Shown here one piece after another: positions 1,319-17,202 of a stretch of 35,607 nt of DNA. The stretch comes from a virus. Numbering within the stretch: the first letter of the stretch is position 1; each line of letters opens with the position of its first letter. The stretch is from the UHGV virus genome UHGV-0212823. One strand, given 5' to 3'. Made by a program: the position numbers and the translations under genes. Under the pieces are notes generated by a model. It saw only the letters and a program-made list of their open reading frames with translations. It did no database searches and had not been told where the DNA came from.

Positions 1319-1393
<75 letters not shown>

Positions 1394-1394
1394 A

Positions 1395-1471
1395 TGGTCC
1401 GCCACCGAGGGCTCGAACCTCGCACCGTCAACTTAGAAGGTTGATGCTCTATCCCGATGAGCTAGTGGCGG
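1395..1471 (-). tRNA. tRNA-Arg (anticodon UCU), 77 nt
   Basis: Acceptor CCGCCAC/GTGGCGG, anticodon stem TCAAC/GTTGA with loop CTTCTAA, T-loop TTCGAGC, CCA encoded. Confidence 0.8.
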
Positions 1472-1472
1472 C

Positions 1473-1549
1473 TGGTGGCCCTTGCTGGACTTGAACCAGC
1501 GACCGGGCGATTATGAGTCGCACGCTCTGACCAACTGAGCTAAAGGGCC
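1473..1549 (-). tRNA. tRNA with anticodon CAU (Ile2/lysidine-type or Met), 77 nt
   Basis: GGCCCTT acceptor, anticodon loop CTCATAA, T-loop TTCAAGT, CCA encoded; resembles enterobacterial ileX-type tRNA from memory. Confidence 0.8.
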
Positions 1550-8857: not shown

Positions 8858-9163
8858 TTATTTCCCGATACTTTGCCTGCGCTCACGAATATTGAAATCT
8901 GCTTCATCTGCATTAAATTTCAGAGCCGAAGCAATACCAGGCAAATACATCATCATTTCACCCAGGTTACGCAAATCCTCTTTAGCCATTTCACCTGTGT
9001 ATTCTTTGTTATCGCAGGCCCAGAAGAGGATATTGCCGACAGAGCCCAGACCGGACATGATCCCTTCGTATGCACCTTCGGAATGCATGCGGATACGGGT
9101 CAGGGTTTCATCGTCCTCTTTATCTAAATCACAGCGTGTCAGTAACTGTTCGATATTGCTCAT
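8858..9163 (-). CDS. hypothetical acidic protein, 101 aa
   Basis: ATGA overlap with upstream gene stop at 9160-9163. Confidence 0.5.
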   Translation of the reverse strand: MSNIEQLLTRCDLDKEDDETLTRIRMHSEGAYEGIMSGLGSVGNILFWACDNKEYTGEMAKEDLRNLGEMMMYLPGIASALKFNADEADFNIRERRQSIGK

Positions 9164-9903
9164 ACCGGCTCTCCCCAGAAATCGATGAGATCAACACCAT
9201 ACACAGCCACCCATGCCTCACGCGGCCATGATTTAACAAAGCCAAACTGCGCGTCCGGCACTTTATGGGGTTCCAGCCCGTTCTCCTGACACCACTTTTT
9301 AAGTGGACGCCAGCCATACTCAATATCAGTGACACTTTTCACGGCTTTCACCGTGGCATATTTCCCTGATTCGCCCAAGCGTTCTGCCAGTTGTTTCGAT
9401 TTACGCACGGCAGCTGATGCAGTGGCCATTGCCGTTGCTTCCCGGCGGCTGCCGATTTCGGCTTTGGTACGCTCAGCTTCGTCAGCGCGGGCTTTCTCTG
9501 CCAGTCGCCCCTGCTCTGACGCCATCGCAATCTGGAGAATTTCCATGGTGGACAGTTCACGCTGAACGGGTGCAGACTGATAACGCGCTTCAAGCTTGTC
9601 GACCAGTCCACGGCGCACCGCCTTTGACTCACGGGCAGCAACGCGGAGAGCCTGCTTATATCGCATCCCGATGACTTCCTGATCTGCTCCACCTTTTTTG
9701 CTATCCATAGGGGTTACGAAAGTTTCGTAAGCCTCCCCGGCAAGCTCATCTTTAATGCGAGCAACAAAATCATTATTTCGAATCGGTTTCTGCCCGCACT
9801 CTTTACGTGCCTCATTAACCATCACCAATAGTTCCTGCGAGTCGATATAATCGGCACCTTTATCCAGGATACCGCCCGCCATAAGTTCAGTTTTATCAGC
9901 CAT
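9160..9903 (-). CDS. hypothetical protein, 247 aa (possible antirepressor-like regulator); start trimmed to MADKTEL
   Basis: RBS GAGGTG 4 nt upstream of ATG at 9903; Ala/Arg/Glu-rich central coiled-coil-like segment. Confidence 0.45.
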   Translation of the reverse strand: MADKTELMAGGILDKGADYIDSQELLVMVNEARKECGQKPIRNNDFVARIKDELAGEAYETFVTPMDSKKGGADQEVIGMRYKQALRVAARESKAVRRGLVDKLEARYQSAPVQRELSTMEILQIAMASEQGRLAEKARADEAERTKAEIGSRREATAMATASAAVRKSKQLAERLGESGKYATVKAVKSVTDIEYGWRPLKKWCQENGLEPHKVPDAQFGFVKSWPREAWVAVYGVDLIDFWGEPV

Positions 9904-10123
9904 TGCACACCTCGTGTTCATTTCCCGTCTGCTCACCAAGATCCAGAGCATTTGTGGACTGCTGCGTAAGATGGGTCGCAATATCGACGAGAGATATCAC
10001 GTACATCTGCAGATTCTTTTCACCGGAGCCGAGGATTCGGGTAGCGCAGTTCATCAGATCCAGCGACCGTTGAAGGTTGATCAACACATCACCTTCTGTA
10101 CGATAAATGTGTGGCTTATCCAT
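9896..10123 (-). CDS. hypothetical protein, 75 aa
   Basis: RBS GGAGG 7 nt upstream of ATG at 10123; overlaps neighbours by 8 nt on both sides. Confidence 0.45.
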   Translation of the reverse strand: MDKPHIYRTEGDVLINLQRSLDLMNCATRILGSGEKNLQMYVISLVDIATHLTQQSTNALDLGEQTGNEHEVCNG

Positions 10124-10286
10124 TTTCAGCCTCCACAGCTTCACGGGCGATCTTTTCAATCAGCTCGATGAGTTCAAGGCACAACTGCTCTTCGTCCGCA
10201 CTGGAAGTGAGAAACCCAGCCGCGGATGCAAGTGCCTGAATCTTATGCAAAGCATCAAGGCCAACCCCGACTTTAACGTTACGCAT
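10116..10286 (-). CDS. small hypothetical protein, 56 aa (paralog of the 10670-10831 ORF)
   Basis: RBS AGGGGG upstream of ATG at 10286; shares sequence pattern with the other small ORF. Confidence 0.45.
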   Translation of the reverse strand: MRNVKVGVGLDALHKIQALASAAGFLTSSADEEQLCLELIELIEKIAREAVEAENG

Positions 10287-10677
10287 TGCATACCCCCTGT
10301 TCAGGTGTGACAGACCAGCCAGCCCGACGAGCCATTTCGAGGAACGCTGACAACGTTGCAACGTGCTCCCCATTAACCAGTGGGTAATCGCACACATGGC
10401 GGCCTTCTTTGAGCTGAACCAACACGCGCCCTGTGAAATTGGGTGAAACGTGAAGGTTCACAGTTGCCACGGTATTCAGCCCTTTCATCAGCATCAGTTT
10501 CGCAAAATCAGCAGCATCGCCGTGCACGCCACAGCCAAAACAGCGGAAGGTTTGAGCCTTAGAATCAACAGTGAATGATGGCGTTTTCTCGCTGTGAAGA
10601 GGGCAAAGGCCAACATAGTTTTTACCCTGTTTCTCAAGCTGAACGTGCTGATCAATCACTTTCAGAATGTCATTCAT
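10279..10677 (-). CDS. CHC2-type zinc-finger protein (DnaG-primase-like zinc-binding domain), 132 aa
   Basis: Motif CPLHSEKTPSF...FRCFGCGVHGD matches the CHC2 primase zinc finger; RBS AGGAGG 7 nt upstream. Confidence 0.7.
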   Translation of the reverse strand: MNDILKVIDQHVQLEKQGKNYVGLCPLHSEKTPSFTVDSKAQTFRCFGCGVHGDAADFAKLMLMKGLNTVATVNLHVSPNFTGRVLVQLKEGRHVCDYPLVNGEHVATLSAFLEMARRAGWSVTPEQGVCNA

Positions 10678-10831
10678 TCCCGGCCTCCTGCGCTTTTTTA
10701 GCGACCTCTTCAATCTGCGACATAAGGATCCCTGCCAGTTCAATGCGGGCAGGTGTATCTGTCAGAAACTGTGCTGCACGTGCGAATGCCTCAATTTCGA
10801 TAAGGGCATCGGTTTTGGTGAATTCAGACAT
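10670..10831 (-). CDS. small hypothetical protein, 53 aa (paralog of the 10116-10286 ORF)
   Basis: RBS AGGAGG 6 nt upstream of ATG at 10831. Confidence 0.45.
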   Translation of the reverse strand: MSEFTKTDALIEIEAFARAAQFLTDTPARIELAGILMSQIEEVAKKAQEAGNE

Positions 10832-11111
10832 GCGCCACCTCCTGAACACTGGAGGTGCAAGCATCAAAACGCTGTTCGAAAATCCAGGAGAAGTGATCAC
10901 CACCCTCCATCAACTGGAGACGGCATGGAGCTTTGGTACGGCTCTGCGCGGCGAAGACCAGACTCAAGTTAAGAAAATGAGAGCGGGCCTGCTGCTCATT
11001 GTTGGCTTCCGCACGCAGAACAACGGGCGTGGTGTTGGGTTTATCTGACGGAGTTCCCAGAAACAGGTATGTGAATTCCGGGCGAGTTTGGGTATCATGT
11101 GAACATGCCAT
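10824..11111 (-). CDS. hypothetical protein, 95 aa, first gene of the early operon
   Basis: RBS GGAG upstream of ATG at 11111; the rest of the listed 247-aa ORF upstream reads like translated intergenic DNA. Confidence 0.4.
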   Translation of the reverse strand: MACSHDTQTRPEFTYLFLGTPSDKPNTTPVVLRAEANNEQQARSHFLNLSLVFAAQSRTKAPCRLQLMEGGDHFSWIFEQRFDACTSSVQEVAHV

Positions 11112-11185
11112 AATGTTACTCCGATTAACGTTGTGGTTAGAGGCCCAACCGGATTGCCGTCCGTGTTGGGCTTCGAATAACTCAA

Positions 11186-11233
11186 GGTGTATTTCACCTT
11201 CAAAATAAAGGCTACTCCATGGTGAAATACACC
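11186..11233. promoter_or_regulatory. pair of palindromic operator-like sites GGTG-N5-CACC in the divergent control region
   Basis: GGTGTATTTCACC at 11186-11198 and its exact reverse complement GGTGAAATACACC at 11221-11233, between the divergent gene starts. Confidence 0.45.
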
Positions 11234-11298
11234 GCAAGCCTTTTTTTAATCTTTTTTTTGCGTATACTGACATACACCAAGTCAAAGGAGTGTCAGTA

Positions 11299-11484
11299 AT
11301 GGCAACAGGTGCAAAGAACGCCAAGTCACAAATGACCACAGTACGAATCCCCCATGAAGTGATGGAAGATATAGAATTCCTCAAGGAGGAAGGAGAAAGT
11401 ACAGCTGGTTTTTTAGTTACTGCAGCAAAAGGCGAAATCAAGCGCCGGCAGCGCAAGAAATCGAAAGATAATCTCGACCAGTGA
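11299..11484 (+). CDS. small putative DNA-binding regulator (ribbon-helix-helix-like), 61 aa
   Basis: RBS AAGGAG 8 nt upstream; -10 TATACT at 11263-11268; basic C-terminus KRRQRKKSK; divergent from the early operon. Confidence 0.5.
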   Translation: MATGAKNAKSQMTTVRIPHEVMEDIEFLKEEGESTAGFLVTAAKGEIKRRQRKKSKDNLDQ

Positions 11485-11498
11485 TCGGTCTGGTTCCC

Positions 11499-11531
11499 AA
11501 AGGCAACGTTCGCAGCGTTGCCTTTTTCTTT
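11499..11531 (+). terminator. rho-independent terminator
   Basis: Hairpin AAAGGCAACG-TTCGCAG-CGTTGCCTTT followed by TTCTTT. Confidence 0.55.
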
Positions 11532-11563
11532 GTGCACAGATGGTGCGCAGGTAATGAAGCCGC

Positions 11564-12181
11564 TCATTCATATACCCCAACTTTCCCGCCGCCAATCAAC
11601 ACAAATGGAATCTGACCAATTTCATCCACCAGTTTTTGCGCATTAACCAGCTCTGGCAAATCATCCTGGCGCTTACGAAGACGGCGGCCGGCATCGGAAG
11701 AATCCTCGTCTGAAGCCTTCCAGGCCGCTGCAACAATATTCCGCATCTGTTCAATCGTGTGATGAACGCCAAGCTGAGGATCTGCCCCCTCCTTCTCAAC
11801 TAAATCCAGTAACCATACGCGAAGCTCTTTCGCTACTTTCGTGCGGGCAAACATGCCGATGAGGTGGGCACCACGCGGTGAGAAAAGACGGGTATCAATT
11901 TCACGTAAGCTATTGTTTATCCCGTTCACCCTCATTTTGGCGACGGTCGTCATTGATGGGCTGAACTCATCCTCATGGCGGTAAAAAAGATTCAGCACCT
12001 TGTCTTTATCTGCATATCCCAAGAGCCCGGCCAGAGTGTCAGCAGTGAACCAAATTTTACCGTCGCCATTGTCATACGGAATTACTACCCGGTCATGAAA
12101 CTTCAGTTCGCGACAAATAACGCTCTGACCGATTTCAGAGTGAGCGAATCCCTGCCCGGAAAGGGCATTCATTTTATTCAT
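11564..12181 (-). CDS. Bro-N domain protein (phage antirepressor-like)
   Basis: Motifs FHDRVVIPYDNGDGKIWFTADTLAGLLGY and LIGMFARTKVAKELRVWLLDLVEK fit the Bro-N fold pattern. Confidence 0.6.
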   Translation of the reverse strand: MNKMNALSGQGFAHSEIGQSVICRELKFHDRVVIPYDNGDGKIWFTADTLAGLLGYADKDKVLNLFYRHEDEFSPSMTTVAKMRVNGINNSLREIDTRLFSPRGAHLIGMFARTKVAKELRVWLLDLVEKEGADPQLGVHHTIEQMRNIVAAAWKASDEDSSDAGRRLRKRQDDLPELVNAQKLVDEIGQIPFVLIGGGKVGVYE

Positions 12182-12290
12182 GGTTATTTACCTGTCGTTA
12201 ATTAGGTTGGTGGCTGTCGTCACAATCAGACCTTAATCAGATGCGAATGCAACAACACGCAACTCATGCACATAGGGTGTTCCTGATTGA

Positions 12291-12488
12291 TTAGGCTACC
12301 TCCTTGCGCGATTCTTCGATGCGCTGGTTGATCCAGTCATCTACTTCACTTTCGACAAAGGCGATGGCACGAGAGCCAATTTTGACAGAGGAAGGGAATT
12401 TACCCTGACTCATAAGGCGGTAGATCCAGGCTTTGCTGTAGCCGGTACGGCGTTGCACTTCTAACAAACGAATGAGTGTTGCAGACAT
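12291..12488 (-). CDS. alpA: AlpA-family transcriptional regulator/excisionase-like protein
   Basis: 65 aa; LLEVQRRTGYSKAWIYRLMSQGKFPSSVKIGSRAIAFVESEVDDWI is the AlpA/Xis-type winged HTH; RBS AGGAG upstream. Confidence 0.8.
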   Translation of the reverse strand: MSATLIRLLEVQRRTGYSKAWIYRLMSQGKFPSSVKIGSRAIAFVESEVDDWINQRIEESRKEVA

Positions 12489-12595
12489 GGTAGGCTCCTG
12501 TAGACGTCTCTATAACAGGAGCAATTACAATCAAATGGGGTGGTGAAGTCATCGCATCGAAATTATAATTTTCGCAGCGAAGTTATAACTTTGAT

Positions 12596-13567
12596 TTAAT
12601 TGAATTTTTCTTTAAATTTTTTGTTGGCTACTGCAAAGTAATCATCAAGGGCACGGCGGGTAAAATTAGGACACATTTCAACCAACTCTTCTTTCAATAG
12701 ATCCTGAGTCCAGCGTCTTTGCCTGCTGTTTGTATTTTTTATAACACTTAACATTGAGCCAACCAAAAAACTGAAATCCATTTCCTCAACTTCTGGCGTT
12801 CCAGTGATCGTTCTTTCAAATGCTATTAAATTATCAGGGCGTAAACCAATTTCACTATTAACTGGAAGCCCATCAGTGGGGAAATAGTTCATTGCATCCA
12901 ATTCTAACAAACGTATATTTCCATCTTTATCCTTTGTGATTTTACCTCGTTCAAATTCTTCCATAATATTAATTAATCGCCCGTTAGTATCTTTTATTAA
13001 TGGTCCACCCAGATTTATTAACCTATTCGATTCATAACCTTTCCCAGTTGAGTATATCCTTTGAAGATCCAGAACCTCAGCGCCAATCAATGGTAGATCA
13101 TAAATCACTTCATTTAGATATTCAGGGCCAGACACATATTCATAATCACCAAACCGACCTTTCTCAAGATAGGATTCCAACGTCATATCTTCATACTTAG
13201 AGCCATACCTAGCCGACATTTTCTCTTTCGAACTTTCGAACTCCTCCAGCAAATACTGTTTAAATTCTTCTTTATATGCTGAAAGTAAATCTCCTTCGCT
13301 CGCATTTTTCAGATTAGGATCACACATCAGCCTGAAAAGAAACATTTCTTGCAAGTGGTTAATAATTGGTACTTCTTTGTAAATCATCTCCCGACCAACA
13401 AATTTTTCTCCATATGGCAATCGAACAGACAAAATCAGATCGTGAGACAAGCCAAGCTCTATCAAATCCAAAACAGTAACGTTTCCTTCAACTATTGAGG
13501 AAAGCCGTTCCGCAGCTTCATCAAGCCCTATCCATTTCTTTATTTTTAGTAGACGATCACTAACCAT
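12596..13567 (-). CDS. hypothetical protein, 323 aa, AT-rich cargo gene
   Basis: Clean ORF with RBS GAGGTGG; far more AT-rich than neighbours; no motif recognised. Confidence 0.6.
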   Translation of the reverse strand: MVSDRLLKIKKWIGLDEAAERLSSIVEGNVTVLDLIELGLSHDLILSVRLPYGEKFVGREMIYKEVPIINHLQEMFLFRLMCDPNLKNASEGDLLSAYKEEFKQYLLEEFESSKEKMSARYGSKYEDMTLESYLEKGRFGDYEYVSGPEYLNEVIYDLPLIGAEVLDLQRIYSTGKGYESNRLINLGGPLIKDTNGRLINIMEEFERGKITKDKDGNIRLLELDAMNYFPTDGLPVNSEIGLRPDNLIAFERTITGTPEVEEMDFSFLVGSMLSVIKNTNSRQRRWTQDLLKEELVEMCPNFTRRALDDYFAVANKKFKEKFN

Positions 13568-13755
13568 TGCACCACCTCATACTCTGGAATCTAAGAGCCA
13601 TGTCAGCCAGCATAGATTACGGTTCGGGAATCAGCTTAGGCATAGCCTTTTCTTTGGATGGATTATCGTCTACTGAGGTAAACATGTCTAGATAGCACTG
13701 TATATTATGCCAGTGAAATTGAGAGAACACGATGTGAGGTCAGTTGTGACCTGTA

Positions 13756-13962
13756 TCAGGTTTTCAGGTCATGACGCGATTCGGCAATACGATTATTTAT
13801 CCACTCGTCGATCTCACTTTCGATAAATGCTATAGAACGCACACCAATCTTCACGGACTGCGGGAAGCGCTTTTCTTTAAGCAGCCGATAAATCCAAGCC
13901 TTGCTATACCCTGTTCTACGAAGTACCTCGGAAAGGCGTATAAATCTACTATTCTGAGCCAT
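13756..13962 (-). CDS. alpA: AlpA-family transcriptional regulator/excisionase-like protein (second copy); start trimmed to MAQNSRF
   Basis: RLSEVLRRTGYSKAWIYRLLKEKRFPQSVKIGVRSIAFIESEIDEWI, paralogous to the 12291-12488 protein. Confidence 0.75.
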   Translation of the reverse strand: MAQNSRFIRLSEVLRRTGYSKAWIYRLLKEKRFPQSVKIGVRSIAFIESEIDEWINNRIAESRHDLKT

Positions 13963-14607
13963 ATGATGTTTCCTGTGTTGCGGACATAACAAAAGAACCT
14001 GGCACTGAGTGACAGGTTTAATATTAATGATTCAAGATTAAGGATGTGGTTTAACCCACAGCATGCAAGCATGTGCGGTTAATAAATTCTTCAGCAAGAT
14101 AGATGCAGCTAAGGGGCTACAGAGTGGCGACTGAATTTCAACAAGGGACGAAACATACCTAGTAAGTGAATTTCTGAAATACACTCATAATACATTTGCT
14201 CATCCCGCATCGGGCTGAGAATCCAGATTTTAAAGAACTATTATACAATTGCATTTATCCTCCAGAACTTCTGGAAGACTGCTACACAAGGGCGTAGCGC
14301 GACTTACACTTAGGCAAGCCTCCCCATTAATTTTAAAGAACATCGCACTTTTCAGTGCTCGATTGATTCACTTTTCAGCGACGGAGAACAAGTGTTCGTT
14401 GTGAAAAGAACTGATCCGATTTCCAACCCTTCTTCAGGGCATGTCCGATGTCTTCACCGAGTAAATCATTTTAAAGAACTAGCACTTCAACAGTGCCGCT
14501 GCTTGTCTAAAGAACAATGGTCGTCAACTGAAATGAAAGATAGATCACTACTGTCTACATGTCCAGCGTTTTTCACATCATAAAAATGAACACGGCCTCA
14601 CTAAATA

Positions 14608-14730
14608 GTCGTTCCAAAACCGCCAAAAGTTGTTCCAGAGTTGTTCCAACTTGAATGTGTGCATATAAATAAAGACAATAACTTATCCTTATAAATATAC
14701 ATATGGAACAACTGGAACAAGTGGAACGAC
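14608..14730. repeat. nonamer array module A: three direct GTYGTTCCA copies and three inverted copies around an AT-rich spacer
   Basis: GTCGTTCCA 14608-14616, GTTGTTCCA 14629-14637 and 14640-14648; inverted TGGAACAAC/TGGAACAAG/TGGAACGAC tandem at 14704-14730. Confidence 0.6.
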
Positions 14731-14759
14731 TATTTTTCTCTTACATGTGAATAAACAGC

Positions 14760-15947
14760 TTATCCAGCAGCCTTACCCGCCAGTTCATCCAGATAGTCAG
14801 CGTACCACTGGAGCATCTCCCGTCTCCCATCGAGGTACTGAGCATGGTTGTAAGTACCACGGATAGTATTCCTGTCAGCGTGCGCCAGTTGAGTTTCTAT
14901 CCATGCAGAATCAAATCCTTTCTCATGCAATACGGTGCTCATCGTGTGTCTGAAACCATGGCCAGTAGCCTTTCCGCCATAGCCTATACGTTTAATCACC
15001 TGGTTAATGCTGGCCTCGCTCATTGGTTTATGTGCATCGTTGCGACCGGGGAAGACATACTTACCCCAGCCGGTGATCTCTTTTAGCTCCAGCAGATGAG
15101 ATTTAACCTGTCTAGAAAGTGGTACAAGGTGAGGACGGCGCATCTTCATGCGTTCCTTAGGGATCTGCCACAAATCATTGTCCAGGTCGAATTCAGCCCA
15201 CTCTGAGGCGCGGAGTTCAATGGTCCTGACACTGGTGTACATAAGCAGTAATGTCGCAATGCGTGTCACTTTACTACCACTATAAGCATTCACTGCGTGA
15301 ATAAATGGACCAAGTTCGGCGGGGAGTAGGTGTGGGAAGTGATTTTGCTTGGGTGATTTTAGTGCGCCAGCCAGATCGGTTACGGGGTTTACCTCTGCTC
15401 TGCCAGTAATTATCGCGTAAGTGAAAATCTGCCGACATGCCTGACGGGTTTTCTTGAGCTTATCCAGTACTCCTCGTTCTTCCATTTTGCGCAACACTGA
15501 CAGCATGTCCATCGGCTTGATTTCGGTAATGGCCTTCTTTCCGACATACGGGAATATATCCTTTCGTAGATATTCAAGAATGTCCTCAGCATACCCGGAA
15601 GACCAGTTCAACTTCTTATGCTCATGCCATTCAAGCGCCAAAAGCTCGAAGCTGTTATTAATTGCTAGATTCTTCGCTTCTCTGGCGGCTTGTTTAACTT
15701 CAGAGGGATCGTCACCTGCTGCAAGTACACGCTTGGCTTCCGTACGTTTGTCTCTGGCTTCAGCAAGCGTCACATCAGGATAAACGCCAATGGAAAGCAG
15801 CTTTTCTTTGCCTGAATAGCGGTACTTCATGCGCCAGTACCTGGAACCATTCGGGTTAACCAGCAGATACAAACCACCACCATCAGACAGCTTATATGGT
15901 TTATCTGTTGGCTTTGCAGTACTTATCTGGCGGGCTGTTAGCTTCAT
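14760..15947 (-). CDS. int: tyrosine site-specific integrase, P4/CP4-57 type
   Basis: 395 aa; N-terminal arm-binding-type domain (LSDGGGLYLLVNPNGSRYWRMKYRY) and C-terminal catalytic region with HGFRHT and Tyr-containing RGTYNHAQY motifs. Confidence 0.9.
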   Translation of the reverse strand: MKLTARQISTAKPTDKPYKLSDGGGLYLLVNPNGSRYWRMKYRYSGKEKLLSIGVYPDVTLAEARDKRTEAKRVLAAGDDPSEVKQAAREAKNLAINNSFELLALEWHEHKKLNWSSGYAEDILEYLRKDIFPYVGKKAITEIKPMDMLSVLRKMEERGVLDKLKKTRQACRQIFTYAIITGRAEVNPVTDLAGALKSPKQNHFPHLLPAELGPFIHAVNAYSGSKVTRIATLLLMYTSVRTIELRASEWAEFDLDNDLWQIPKERMKMRRPHLVPLSRQVKSHLLELKEITGWGKYVFPGRNDAHKPMSEASINQVIKRIGYGGKATGHGFRHTMSTVLHEKGFDSAWIETQLAHADRNTIRGTYNHAQYLDGRREMLQWYADYLDELAGKAAG

Positions 15948-16365
15948 ATTGGGGGTATCTCACTTCATTGAACCTGAACATACCCCCGAATGTACCCCCA
16001 GATGAGCGTAGATTTCAATAGATGATAATAGACATTGGGATAATGAGATTCTGCTCTATGCCTTGTTATATCTGGATTTAGTAGACTTTGAGAGAGGTCA
16101 GTAGAAGTGAATATGGTACGCCCTGTAGGATTCAATATAAATAAATAATCAATTGATATAAATGAATATTATTTTGTTCAATTTAATCACATACCCCCAC
16201 ACATACCCCCAAATTTATTTGCATCAATACTGAGCAAAAAACTTACCCGGTTTGGCAGAGTTCCAAGCCTATAGTAAAACAATAATGCAACAAATCCCTG
16301 ACTGAATTTCAGCAGCCATCTCTGGGTATCCATTTTTTAAATACGCGTATATATATACAGAAAAC

Positions 16366-16482
16366 GTTGTTCCAGTCGTTCCAGTTGTTCCAAAACATGT
16401 AATCAATTGAATTTTAAATAAATCATAATCGAAAAGTGGAACAATTCGGTGTCAAAAAAGTTGTTCCAGATGGCGGTTTTGG
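16366..16482. repeat. nonamer array module B: same GTYGTTCCA family, inverted relative to module A
   Basis: GTTGTTCCA/GTCGTTCCA/GTTGTTCCA at 16366-16393, TGGAACAA at 16437-16444, GTTGTTCCA 16460-16468, TGGCGGTTTTGG 16471-16482 (reverse complement of 14614-14625). Confidence 0.6.
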
Positions 16483-16959
16483 TACAACTGGAGTGGGTAA
16501 TTTGGAGTAGCAGTGACAAAATGGCGCAAATTTCAGCCAATGCACACAGGGTGTTCATGAAGATTAAGTGAAAGTAAAACAGATAGGGAATTTGAGATTT
16601 GGCGAAAGGAGTGTTGATCATTTGTGAGCAAACTGCATTCGGATTACTGGGCTTGCAGTTGCCAGAAAAACTACGAGCCGGCGAAATTCATACCGACATC
16701 GCAACCCATTGATGCAGCTTAATTATAGCGAATCGCGAGAATTGGCTAACCCATTGAAATTGTTCCAGAGTGTAAATTTACACTCTGCTCATAATACGTG
16801 CAACCCACTGAATTACCTTGATTATAACGAATCGTTAGGATTGCCTAACTGGCTGATTTTGTTCAATTCCGTCGATTCAACGGAGTTAGTTGATCACGAA
16901 TAGTATTCGGGGTCGCCTGAACATTAACACTACTTAGGTTCTAAAGAGGAGTTAAAACA

Positions 16960-17202
16960 ATGTTCGTGGAACTCGTTTATGACAAAAGGAATTTTGATGG
17001 TCTGCCCGGTGCAAAAGATATCATTCTGGGCGAATTGACCAGGAGGGTTCACCGGATTTTCCCCGACGCTGATGTCCGGGTTAAACCGATGATGACATTG
17101 CCGGCGATCAACACTGACGCCAGCAAGCACGAGAAGGAACAGATAAGCCGTACTGTTCAGGAAATGTTTGAAGAGGCTGATATGTGGCTGGTTTCAGATT
17201 AA
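16960..17202 (+). CDS. dinI: DinI-family protein
   Basis: 80 aa; pattern ELTRRVHRIFPDADVRVKP...EKEQISRTVQEMFEEADMWLVSD resembles DinI; strong RBS AAGAGGAG. Confidence 0.75.
   Translation: MFVELVYDKRNFDGLPGAKDIILGELTRRVHRIFPDADVRVKPMMTLPAINTDASKHEKEQISRTVQEMFEEADMWLVSD

What the first reader, a model, noticed from the sequence alone, without database searches (positions are those of the whole stretch)
12291..13992. AT-rich orphan gene between two AlpA paralogs beside the integrase: candidate defence/accessory cassette
The 323-aa ORF at 12596-13567 is much more AT-rich than its neighbours, has its own RBS, and shows no motif I can place. It is bracketed by two AlpA-family genes (12291-12488 and 13756-13962), which looks like duplication by insertion of an AlpA-plus-cargo unit. 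Tandem 17-bp direct repeats (TCGCATCGAAATTATAA / TCGCAGCGAAGTTATAA, 12552-12588) and a 7-bp inverted repeat (12495-12521) lie between the cargo gene and the downstream AlpA gene, and a hairpin TGACCTG-N11-CAGGTCA (13747-13771) overlaps the upstream AlpA stop. Integrase-proximal variable slots in P4-like and other temperate elements often carry anti-phage or exclusion genes.
Basis: partly seen in the sequence, partly recalled or inferred. Interest (0 to 1): 0.75.

Follow-up and report, generated by a model that had tools for sequence, protein, structure and literature searches.

The report
Swappable regulator cassette upstream of alpA
The AT-rich "orphan" gene is real and sits in a highly variable slot, but it looks less like an anti-phage weapon than a swappable DNA-binding switch protein that arrives with its own binding sites on the promoter of the element's master activator gene alpA; this may be the missing repressor of AlpA-type phages and satellites.

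Summary
The 323-aa gene (X, 12596-13567, minus strand) has no Pfam, PADLOC, PHROG, NCBIfam or PDB relative, but it is not an orphan: 297 cluster representatives exist, all unnamed. In every context examined, from Enterobacterales to Gilliamella and Aquitalea, X lies directly upstream of an AlpA gene, and in all but Gilliamella directly after a P4-type integrase. The slot is nevertheless hypervariable: 64 loci whose AlpA is 62-89% identical hold 15-23 unrelated protein families. A sister element (L073) is about 85% identical on both sides and differs exactly from 30 nt before X's ATG to AlpA1's ATG. Operator sequence changes with the slot protein, and specifically with its C-terminal domain, while AlpA's DNA-reading helix is unchanged. 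The "7-bp inverted repeat" is a hairpin that hides AlpA's ribosome-binding site and is kept by compensatory changes across loci. None of 11 slot families matches a known defence system. Best reading (about 0.45): X is an immunity-type repressor of the alpA promoter. The main rival is an activator. The defence reading is not excluded but has no positive support. None of this is tested experimentally.

The parts
12291..12488 (-). AlpA1 (65 aa). This is the AlpA gene controlled by the cassette, and the likely master activator of the early operon.
   Evidence: Pfam PF05930 E=4.4e-18. It is 63-83% identical to the AlpA that follows the slot in all related loci. It is part of the backbone shared with L073: 84.7% identity resumes exactly at its ATG.
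12494..12522 (-). Hairpin GCTCCTGT-N13-ACAGGAGC. Its 3' arm contains AlpA1's Shine-Dalgarno sequence (AGGAG), so it would act as a translational lock on alpA.
   Evidence: MFE -14.7 kcal/mol, z=-3.2. 54 of 74 distinct alpA leaders have a hairpin of at least 6 bp covering the SD, with 56 distinct arm pairs. Permutation test of own versus other loci's SD regions: 6.21 versus 5.07 nt, z=6.5.
12524..12529 (-). -10-like hexamer TGTAAT of the candidate alpA1 promoter, 2 nt upstream of the hairpin's 5' arm. It lacks the usual A at position 2, so the promoter is probably weak or activator-dependent.
   Evidence: Read. An equivalent nnTAAT hexamer sits directly before the anti-SD arm in the other loci.
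12547..12552 (-). -35-like hexamer ATGACT, overlapping operator Op2 by 2 nt.
   Evidence: The xTGAxx hexamer is conserved after the proximal operator in X-family loci. It lies exactly 17 nt from the nnTAAT hexamer in the window, L009, L023, L059, L063, L011 and L017, although the spacer sequences differ (read).
12551..12561 (-). Operator Op2, TTCGATGCGAT (imperfect palindrome), centred about -40 from the predicted start site.
   Evidence: The motif occurs only here in the window and only in this spacer in each relative.
12571..12581 (-). Operator Op1, TTCGCTGCGAA (perfect palindrome), 20 bp from Op2 and centred about -60.
   Evidence: Related X members have TTGCATGCAA, TTGCAGCAA or TTGTGTGCAA at the same place.
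12596..13567 (-). X, 323 aa. It has an N-terminal AlpA/Xis/MerR-type winged helix (about aa 10-67, nt 13367-13540), a middle domain with no structural relative (about aa 70-255), and a basic three-helix C-terminal domain (about aa 262-323, nt 12599-12784).
12489..13597 (-). The exchangeable cassette: the X ORF plus the 107-nt spacer carrying the operators, promoter and hairpin.
   Evidence: Window versus L073: 85.6% identity over 16100-13597 and 84.7% over 12488-11500, with unrelated content in between.
13662..13715 (-). Backbone region upstream of the cassette that probably drives the slot gene. It holds a promoter-like TAGACA-17-GATAAT (13690-13662), an inverted repeat CACTG-N10-CAGTG around TGGCATAAT (13696-13715), and a GTAGACG box (13667-13673).
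   Evidence: Promoter scan gives 10 of 12 matches. The region is conserved with L073 at about 85% and partly with L004, L005 and L007.
13756..13962 (-). AlpA2 (68 aa), a second AlpA paralogue next to int. It may be the excisionase partner of Int.
   Evidence: Pfam PF05930 E=1.4e-20. It is 63% identical to AlpA1. It is shared with L073. EcCIMP1 is a precedent for two AlpA-family genes with split roles (PMC11773190).
14760..15947 (-). P4-type tyrosine integrase (395 aa).
   Evidence: Pfam Arm-DNA-bind_3, Phage_int_M and Phage_integrase.

Best explanation
X is the cassette-specific DNA-binding regulator of the alpA1 promoter. Most likely it is an immunity-type repressor that keeps this AlpA-driven temperate element silent.

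Proposed mechanism:
1. In the lysogen X is made from a backbone promoter upstream of the cassette.
2. X dimers bind, through the basic C-terminal three-helix domain, to two palindromic operators 20 bp apart (12571-12581 and 12551-12561). These operators abut and overlap the -35 of the weak alpA1 promoter and so block it.
3. Transcripts that read through from X into alpA1 carry both arms of a hairpin that hides AlpA1's ribosome-binding site, so no AlpA1 is made from them.
4. When X is inactivated, presumably through its middle domain by an antirepressor or helper-phage protein, the alpA1 promoter fires.
5. Its predicted start lies inside the hairpin's 5' arm, so this mRNA has a free ribosome-binding site. 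AlpA1 is made, reinforces its own promoter (published for Gram-negative PICIs), and turns on Bro, replication, Q and lysis.
6. Swapping the cassette (protein plus operators) changes immunity specificity.

Shown here: domain make-up, operator positions, operator/protein co-variation, hairpin co-variation, cassette boundaries.
Inferred: binding itself, the sign of regulation, the start site, and the inducer.
For: 1. Position. X-family members at 20-100% identity always sit directly before an AlpA(-like) gene, preceded by int in all but Gilliamella. This holds in phages, small islands, Gilliamella and a betaproteobacterium.
2. Private operators. Each cassette type has its own pair or array of palindromes 20-21 bp apart just before a -35-like hexamer. 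AlpA's recognition region RRTGYSKAWIYRL is identical in the window, L009 and L011, whose operators differ.
3. Single location. The operators occur nowhere else in each 9-17 kb locus.
4. Natural domain swaps. L069 and L064 share only their C-terminal 72 aa (61% identity) and have identical TAATATTA operators. The type-A C-terminal domain is shared by X and cluster 2, and both use TTGC/GCAA half-sites in opposite arrangement.
6. Unit of exchange. Protein plus operators move together, as in lambdoid immunity regions.
7. Need for a repressor. The window has no CI/Cro-type repressor and no P4-type immunity RNA.
8. Co-residence. Two elements with different cassettes coexist in the same E. coli genomes.
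9. Open question in the field. The literature states that a global repressor in Gram-negative PICIs is unclear and that AlpA is an activator (PMC6092414).
Against: - No experiment, and binding is inferred.
- Operators centred near -40 and -60 fit class II/I activation as well as repression.
- The -10-like hexamer lacks A at position 2, so the promoter may simply be off by default and need no repressor.
- About 9 of 66 related loci have no slot gene, and published PICIs such as EcCICFT073 stay silent until a helper is induced.
- DUF6387-type slot proteins (12 loci) show no repeated palindromes and have terminator-like hairpins instead, so not every slot occupant need be a regulator.
- C-terminal domain and operators are physically adjacent, so their co-inheritance could partly reflect linkage.
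- The start site is predicted, not mapped.
Confidence: 0.45

Rival explanations
1. X is a sensor-activator. It binds the same operators at about -40 and -60 and switches on the intrinsically weak alpA1 promoter when its middle domain detects an induction cue, such as a helper-phage protein or stress signal.
For: - Operator centres at about -40 and -60 match classical class II/I activator geometry.
- The -10-like hexamer lacks the key A, so the promoter probably needs help.
- Slot-less relatives exist.
- alpA is helper-inducible and AlpA is an activator in published PICIs (PMC6092414; PMC11773190).
Against: - An activator gives little reason for DNA-binding specificity to diversify into many private operator types while the sensor part (N and middle domains) stays conserved. 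That pattern is the hallmark of immunity repressors.
- The window phage would then have no identifiable lysogeny repressor.
Confidence: 0.2
2. One reading: X is an anti-phage defence, exclusion or abortive-infection effector carried as cargo in an integrase-proximal hotspot, and the nearby repeats only serve its own expression.
For: - The slot is hypervariable and uniformly AT-rich.
- X's middle domain has no structural relative, so an unknown activity cannot be excluded.
- EcCIMP1, an island of this type, gives superinfection immunity with no known defence system (PMC11773190).
Against: - 0 of 11 slot families hit PADLOC, whereas true satellite hotspots hold many known systems.
- The operators lie downstream of X on the next gene's promoter, not upstream of X.
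- The slot holds one or two small same-strand genes.
- Only one invariant acidic residue (E164) and no catalytic-looking motif in the middle domain.
- In Gilliamella AbiEii sits upstream while X stays next to alpA.
- The documented P4-like defence hotspot is between int and psu, a different place (PMC8628076).
Confidence: 0.15
3. X is an accessory recombination-directionality or excision-control factor. Its Xis-like N-terminal domain works with Int and AlpA2 at attP, and the palindromes are architectural sites.
For: - The N-terminal domain has the excisionase/AlpA fold and is the most conserved part of the family.
- The gene lies between int and an Xis-family gene.
Against: - The palindromes are at the alpA promoter, more than 3 kb from the likely attP region beyond int.
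- They vary with the cassette while Int is conserved.
- Elements with the same int carry unrelated slot proteins.
Confidence: 0.07

Closest known systems
Lambdoid immunity regions (cI/cro plus operators: imm-lambda, imm434, imm21) and the P2 int-C-cox / 186 int-cI-apl arrangement (from general knowledge)
   Same: A regulator and its cognate operators are exchanged as one unit between conserved flanks, giving many specificities. The regulator gene lies between int and an Xis-like early regulator (Cox/Apl there, AlpA here). The immunity region is AT-rich.
   Different: All genes here are co-directional rather than divergent. X has no HTH_3 or S24 domains and no sequence relation to CI or C. Insulation from read-through appears to rely on an SD-hiding hairpin. 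Repression is not demonstrated.
SaPI Stl / Gram-positive PICI Rpr master repressors
   Same: Hypervariable, modular DNA-binding proteins next to int in satellites, thought to couple the element to a helper phage. They would fill the gap noted for Gram-negative PICIs (PMC6092414).
   Different: Stl is transcribed divergently from the genes it represses and has an N-terminal HTH. X is co-directional, its likely DNA reader is C-terminal, there is no sequence or fold match, and X also occurs in a full-size phage.
AlpA / Xis / MerR-type winged-helix proteins (PF05930; PDB 8c3t, 4j2n, 8dgl, 6amk)
   Different: No sequence-profile similarity (hhalign probability 0.1%; no Pfam hit). X is five times larger and has two further domains.
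Defence hotspots of P4-like satellites (int-psu region; Rousset 2022 as cited in PMC8628076)
   Same: A variable, integrase-proximal region in a P4-integrase element.
   Different: Different location and layout, with no psu, delta or sid here. Those hotspots hold many recognisable defence systems, and this slot holds none in 11 families tested.
Gram-negative PICIs (EcCICFT073, EcCIMP1) and their int-alpA 'integration zone'
   Same: Same int, alpA, Bro, primase order and an AlpA of the same family. L005 sits at the EcCIMP1 site (proA/tRNA-Thr).
   Different: Published descriptions place alpA just downstream of int and do not describe a regulator gene between them. EcCIMP1 has only a gene of about 70 aa there. 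The window element also carries full virion and lysis genes.

Membership tests
Phage_AlpA / excisionase winged-helix family (PF05930) | Sequence match to the Pfam or profile model | tested here: not met
   No Pfam hit for X or for 53 relatives. hhalign of the X family against the AlpA alignment gives probability 0.1%.
Phage_AlpA / excisionase winged-helix family (PF05930) | Two-helix plus beta-wing fold | tested here: inconclusive
Known anti-phage defence systems (PADLOC-DB v2) | Match to any defence protein model | tested here: not met
   X has 0 families at E<=1. Ten other slot-family representatives give only two chance-level hits, E 0.002-0.005.
Defence hotspot of a mobile element | Related elements carry different genes at the same position | tested here: met
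   15-23 families in 64 loci. Clean swap against L073. L017 and L018 in E. coli carry the same int.
Defence hotspot of a mobile element | A sizeable share of occupants are recognisable defence systems | tested here: not met
   0 of 11 families. The only recognisable defence gene seen, AbiEii in L100, lies upstream of X rather than replacing it.
Immunity cassette (repressor plus cognate operators) | Protein and its binding sites are exchanged together between conserved flanks | tested here: met
   Cassette boundaries 13597 and 12488 include the ORF and the operator/promoter spacer. Operators are private to each cassette type.
Immunity cassette (repressor plus cognate operators) | Operators overlap the promoter of the lytic or early operon | tested here: inconclusive
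   Op2 overlaps a -35-like hexamer by 2 nt. The promoter is supported by a conserved 17-nt spacing across loci, but it failed the tool's consensus rule and no start site is mapped.
Immunity cassette (repressor plus cognate operators) | The protein binds the operators and represses transcription | not testable with these tools
   Needs EMSA or footprinting and reporter assays.
CI/LexA-type phage repressor | HTH_3 DNA-binding domain plus S24 autocleavage domain | tested here: not met
   No such Pfam domains in X or in any other early-region ORF of the window.
SaPI Stl / PICI Rpr | Divergent transcription from the repressed operon, with an N-terminal HTH | tested here: not met
   X is co-directional with alpA in all loci. 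The operator-linked domain is C-terminal.
SaPI Stl / PICI Rpr | Derepression by a helper-phage protein | not testable with these tools
   Needs genetics or biochemistry.
P4-type RNA immunity (CI RNA/seqA; Rfam C4, isrK) | Rfam match in the Bro or early zone | tested here: not met
   Only three tRNAs at gathering threshold. Nothing relevant at E<=1 in 9000-17000.
Gram-negative PICI (for the element in the window) | int, alpA and primase present, with no virion or lysis genes, about 12-15 kb | tested here: not met
   int, AlpA and a DUF927 protein are present, but so are TerL, portal, capsid, tape measure, J, Q, holin and lysozyme. The relatives L005, L017 and L018 do look like PICIs.

The most novel reading that the evidence does not exclude
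The int-alpA slot of AlpA-type elements (Gram-negative PICI-like satellites and a group of temperate phages) encodes a hypervariable set of modular sensor-repressors. These would be the long-sought equivalent of Stl in Gram-negative PICIs. Each has a swappable DNA-binding domain plus a private operator pair on the alpA promoter. The system would work together with a promoter-embedded anti-Shine-Dalgarno hairpin that lets alpA be translated only from its own promoter. On this reading the cassette decides both immunity group and which helper or inducer can wake the element.
Probability: 0.35. Interest if true: 0.8.

Novelty: new variant of a known kind. Interest (0 to 1): 0.62.

Why it matters
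AlpA is the published master activator of Gram-negative phage-inducible islands. [quoted passage not shown] A cassette that pairs a private DNA-binding protein with private operators on the alpA promoter gives a concrete, cheap-to-test candidate for that switch. It would also explain why closely related islands can coexist in one genome, and it offers a way to classify these elements into immunity or induction groups. The SD-hiding hairpin, kept by co-variation across dozens of species, is a second testable control layer. It also warns against calling every AT-rich, integrase-proximal unknown gene a defence gene.

Tried and rejected
1. **Palindromes as AlpA autoregulation sites.** Rejected: AlpA's HTH is identical where the palindromes differ.
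2. **Sequence kinship between X and AlpA.** None.
3. **The 770-nt ORF-free gap between int and AlpA2 as a decayed slot gene.** blastx found nothing better than E=1.5.
4. **P4-type RNA immunity.** No C4/isrK match.
5. **An operator regulon elsewhere in the element.** The motifs occur only in the spacer. A 1-mismatch site at 11509-11519 is within chance.
6. **RNAalifold on a MAFFT alignment of 19 alpA leaders.** It gave no structure because two hairpin classes were aligned 2 columns out of register. I replaced it with an alignment-free permutation test.
7. **Strict test for two exact 4+4 palindromes.** Positive in only 22 of 64 loci. It misses imperfect copies, including the window's own, and is truly negative for the DUF6387 loci.
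8. **First AF2 model from 12 close homologues.** Unusable at pLDDT 52. The 146-sequence alignment fixed this.
9. **afdb50 fold search.** The library was unavailable.
11. **EcCIMP1_002 and c1499/c1500 as slot homologues.** EcCIMP1_002 is only about 70 aa, and the other two are capsid genes elsewhere in EcCICFT073.
12. **Close DNA matches in complete E. coli genomes or deposited phages.** None.
Full report
**1. What is in the window.**
Read on the minus strand, the 35.6-kb window has the gene order of a lambda-type temperate phage. The order is terminase large subunit, portal, HK97-type capsid, tape measure, tip protein J and tail fibres, then dinI on the other strand. Next come a P4-type integrase (14760-15947), AlpA2 (13756-13962), the 323-aa ORF "X" (12596-13567), AlpA1 (12291-12488) and a Bro-N protein. 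After these come small ORFs, a CHC2 zinc-finger protein, a DUF927 protein, SSB, antiterminator Q, three tRNAs, holin and lysozyme. The early region is the kind described for Gram-negative PICIs and P4-like elements rather than for lambda. No CI/Cro-type repressor was found among its ORFs, and there is no P4-type immunity RNA.

**2. The observation.**
- X is 36.7% GC against 49.5% for the window and has a GAGGTG ribosome-binding site.
- X has no hit in Pfam, PADLOC, PHROGs, NCBIfam or PDB sequences.
- Both neighbours are Phage_AlpA proteins.
- The two 17-mers, the 7-bp inverted repeat and the 13747-13771 hairpin are all there.

**3. X is not an orphan, and its position is fixed.**
A word-indexed search found only 12 close clusters, all in Enterobacteriaceae and all "hypothetical". 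An exhaustive HMMER search found 297 representative clusters. Nearly all are 280-350 aa and share N-terminal, central and C-terminal blocks. None of 53 diverse members has a Pfam domain.

I examined the contexts of members at 100%, 76%, 70%, 63%, 38%, 32%, 28% and about 23% identity, plus Gilliamella and the betaproteobacterium Aquitalea. Every one has X directly upstream of an AlpA or AlpA-like gene, followed by Bro, KilA-N or AntA and then a primase. All but Gilliamella have a P4-type integrase directly upstream of X. These elements sit at several different chromosomal sites. They include small islands (L005 lies at the proA/tRNA-Thr site used by the PICI EcCIMP1) as well as phage-like elements.

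**4. The slot is nevertheless hypervariable.**
- *E. coli:* 547 complete genomes share L005's integrase at about 85% nucleotide identity, but the match stops at the first base of the slot gene and none carries X. Two examples have unrelated 251-aa and 265-aa proteins there, each followed by a conserved 65-aa AlpA.
- *Across species:* I fetched 80 loci from species-representative genomes using AlpA alone. Most have int upstream and a single same-strand ORF of 150-350 aa in a gap of about 1.0-1.3 kb. About 9 have no slot gene.
- *Diversity:* the occupants form 23 clusters, or 15 by any local similarity. Only 7 of the 80 are X-family.
- *Known families:* ten representatives of the other clusters have no PADLOC match, and their only Pfam family is DUF6387.
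- *Composition:* slot genes are AT-rich in 64 of 64 loci, with mean GC 37.9% against 48.1% for int. AT-richness therefore belongs to the slot, not to X.

**5. Cassette boundaries.**
L073 (an Enterobacter MAG) has the same double-AlpA backbone. It is 85.6% identical to the window from upstream of int to position 13597, which is 30 nt before X's ATG. It is 84.7% identical again from AlpA1's ATG (12488) through Bro. Between these points it carries two unrelated genes and a different spacer. The exchanged unit is therefore the slot ORF plus the spacer that precedes alpA. AlpA1 and AlpA2 are 63% identical. They are old paralogues and part of a shared backbone, not the product of a recent insertion.

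**6. The spacer is a regulatory module that co-varies with the protein.**
The 107-nt spacer between X and AlpA1 has 83% mean column identity among the four loci whose X is at least 63% identical. The other cassettes carry different motifs at the same place:

| Loci | Motif |
|---|---|
| L009, L023, L013, L059, L063, Gilliamella L100 | TTGCATGCAA or TTGTGTGCAA |
| L011 | TTGCAGCAA |
| L015 | ATTTCAnTGAAAT |
| L064, L066, L068 | TAATATTA |
| L017 | ACCGCAATTGCGGT, twice |
| L018 | TACCCTnAGGGTA, 4-5 copies |
| Cluster 8 | TTCCGGAA, twice |
| Cluster 3 | ACTTCCAA, 4-5 direct copies |

AlpA's recognition region RRTGYSKAWIYRL is identical in the window, L009 and L011 although their palindromes differ. 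The sites therefore belong to the cassette protein and not to AlpA. Within each 9-17 kb locus the motif occurs only in this spacer. A strict test for two exact copies is significant for clusters 0, 2, 7 and 17. It is negative for the DUF6387 loci, which instead have terminator-like hairpins. The generalisation does not cover every slot family.

**7. Which domain reads the operators.**
With 146 sequences AlphaFold2 gives a confident model (mean pLDDT 91.5, pTM 0.75).
- *C-terminal domain:* natural recombinants point here for operator recognition. L069 and L064 share only their last 72 residues (61% identity) and have the same TAATATTA operators. The "type A" C-terminal domain is shared by most X members and by cluster 2 (jackhmmer E down to 2e-19; hhalign 87%). 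Both groups use TTGC/GCAA half-sites, arranged as TTGC-n-GCAA in X and as GCAA-TTGC in cluster 2. The domain is basic. As a profile, its best PDB hit is the HTH of the sigma54 RpoN box (E=0.007), with scattered weak HTH Pfam hits.
- *Caveat:* the domain and the operators are adjacent, so part of this association could be linkage.

**8. Promoter and hairpin.**
Directly after the proximal operator comes a conserved xTGAxx hexamer (ATGACT in the window, 12547-12552). Exactly 17 nt further on is an nnTAAT hexamer (TGTAAT, 12524-12529). The 17-nt spacing holds in the window, L009, L023, L059, L063, L011 and L017, although the intervening sequences differ (read). The -10-like hexamer lacks the usual A at position 2, so it failed the consensus scan. 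The promoter is probably weak or activator-dependent, which fits the published positive autoregulation by AlpA.

The hairpin begins 2 nt after the hexamer. Its 3' arm contains AlpA1's Shine-Dalgarno sequence (z=-3.2).
- Across relatives, 54 of 74 distinct leaders have a hairpin of at least 6 bp over the SD, with 56 different arm pairs.
- The anti-SD changes in step with the SD: AGGAG/CTCCT, GGGGG/CCCCC, GAGGT/ATCTC, GGGAG/CTCCC.
- In a permutation test, each leader complements its own SD region better than those of other loci (6.21 versus 5.07 +/- 0.18 nt, z=6.5; 0 of 2000 permutations reach the observed value).

If transcription starts about 7 nt after the hexamer, the alpA1 mRNA would lack most of the anti-SD arm, whereas read-through mRNA from X would contain it. 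That step is inference, and the start site is unmapped.

**9. Interpretation.**
The simplest model is that X is the cassette-specific regulator of the alpA1 promoter. I favour a repressor of the immunity type for five reasons.
- DNA-binding specificity, rather than the putative sensor part, has diversified into many private operator types.
- Protein and operators are exchanged as a unit, as in lambdoid immunity regions.
- The gene occupies the place of C/CI between int and Cox/Apl in P2 and 186 (general knowledge).
- The window phage has no other recognisable repressor.
- Elements with different cassettes coexist in single E. coli genomes (strains F9792 and F8111-1SC3).

The main rival is an activator, because operators near -40 and -60 on a weak promoter fit that geometry equally well, and because slot-less relatives exist. 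The defence reading is not excluded, since the middle domain is structurally novel. It has no positive support, however, and several observations count against it: no known systems in 11 families, operators on the next gene's promoter, and AbiEii sitting upstream of X in Gilliamella.

**10. Comparison with what is known.**
Papers in the library describe int followed by alpA as the "integration zone" and do not describe a regulator between them. [quoted passage not shown] The documented P4-like defence hotspot lies between int and psu, which is a different place. No deposited phage genome encodes an X homologue. I therefore rate this a new variant of a known kind, namely an immunity or regulatory cassette built from an undescribed protein family and combined with an SD-hiding leader. 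Interest is moderate to high and depends on experimental confirmation.

Noticed in passing
window 12500-12506, 13549-13555, 13667-13673; related loci: A short box, CGTCTAC or its complement GTAGACG (generalised as GTCYAC/GTRGAC), flanks the cassette on both sides. It is found in 30 of 61 distinct alpA leaders and in 49 of 61 int-to-slot intergenic regions, against 3.8% of random 60-nt windows. It belongs to the backbone rather than the cassette, so it may bind a conserved factor such as AlpA or Int.
   Followed up: partly
window 13963-14759: A stretch of about 770 nt between int and AlpA2 has no ORF yet is 85% identical in L073. It holds three terminator-like hairpins, plus a hairpin with a T-run (13996-14018) immediately upstream of AlpA2's ribosome-binding site. 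There is no protein similarity (blastx) and no Rfam hit. Its function is unknown.
   Followed up: partly
window 13696-13715: An inverted repeat CACTG-N10-CAGTG encloses an extended -10-like TGGCATAAT upstream of X. L073 has a perfect TGGTATAAT at the same place. This could be a regulated promoter for the slot gene. It would allow a two-way switch if AlpA represses it.
   Followed up: no
whole window: A complete HK97-type virion and lysis gene set is joined to a PICI-type early region (int, two AlpA, Bro, DUF927 protein). One study found AlpA in only 1 of 169 model prophages and reported PICIs that had captured up to 17 helper late genes (PMC10111431). This element may be a phage/satellite chimera or a little-known phage group.
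   Followed up: partly
E. coli NZ_CP024273.1 and NZ_CP024269.1: Strains F9792 and F8111-1SC3 each carry two AlpA-type islands with different slot cassettes (L017-type and L018-type) at different chromosomal positions.
   Followed up: no
L019, L031, L032, L047, L060, L077, L079, L083, L086, L087 (slot genes): DUF6387-type slot proteins have no repeated palindromes downstream. They have GC-rich terminator-like hairpins instead, so the slot may hold two kinds of occupant (regulators and true cargo).
   Followed up: partly
L076 2798-4346; L081 2795-4358 (Providencia): Two tandem paralogues of the cluster-2 slot protein fill the slot. Both carry the type-A C-terminal domain.
   Followed up: no
L100 3938-4855 (Gilliamella): An AbiEii toxin gene with a small upstream partner, plus transposase fragments, lies immediately upstream of X in place of the integrase.
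   Followed up: no
window 11290-11484 (+): This 64-aa ORF is one of the few on the opposite strand in the early region (phrog_949 and phrog_6522, function unknown). The E. coli islands L017 and L018 have YlcI/YnfO-family genes in the equivalent position and orientation. It is another candidate small regulator.
   Followed up: partly
window 16000-16950 and 16960-17202: An AT-rich (35-41% GC) stretch lacking ORFs of 110 aa or more lies between int and a dinI gene on the opposite strand. It is the likely attP region, but I did not map it.
   Followed up: no
window 1319-1549: Three adjacent tRNA genes (Met-CAT, Arg-TCT, Gly-TCC) lie between Q and the lysis genes, as in some lambdoid and Stx phages.
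   Followed up: no
NZ_CP196304.1 (E. coli ECamp52): The L017-type slot protein is annotated 'protein kinase' in one RefSeq genome and 'hypothetical protein' in the others. This is probably an annotation artefact.
   Followed up: no
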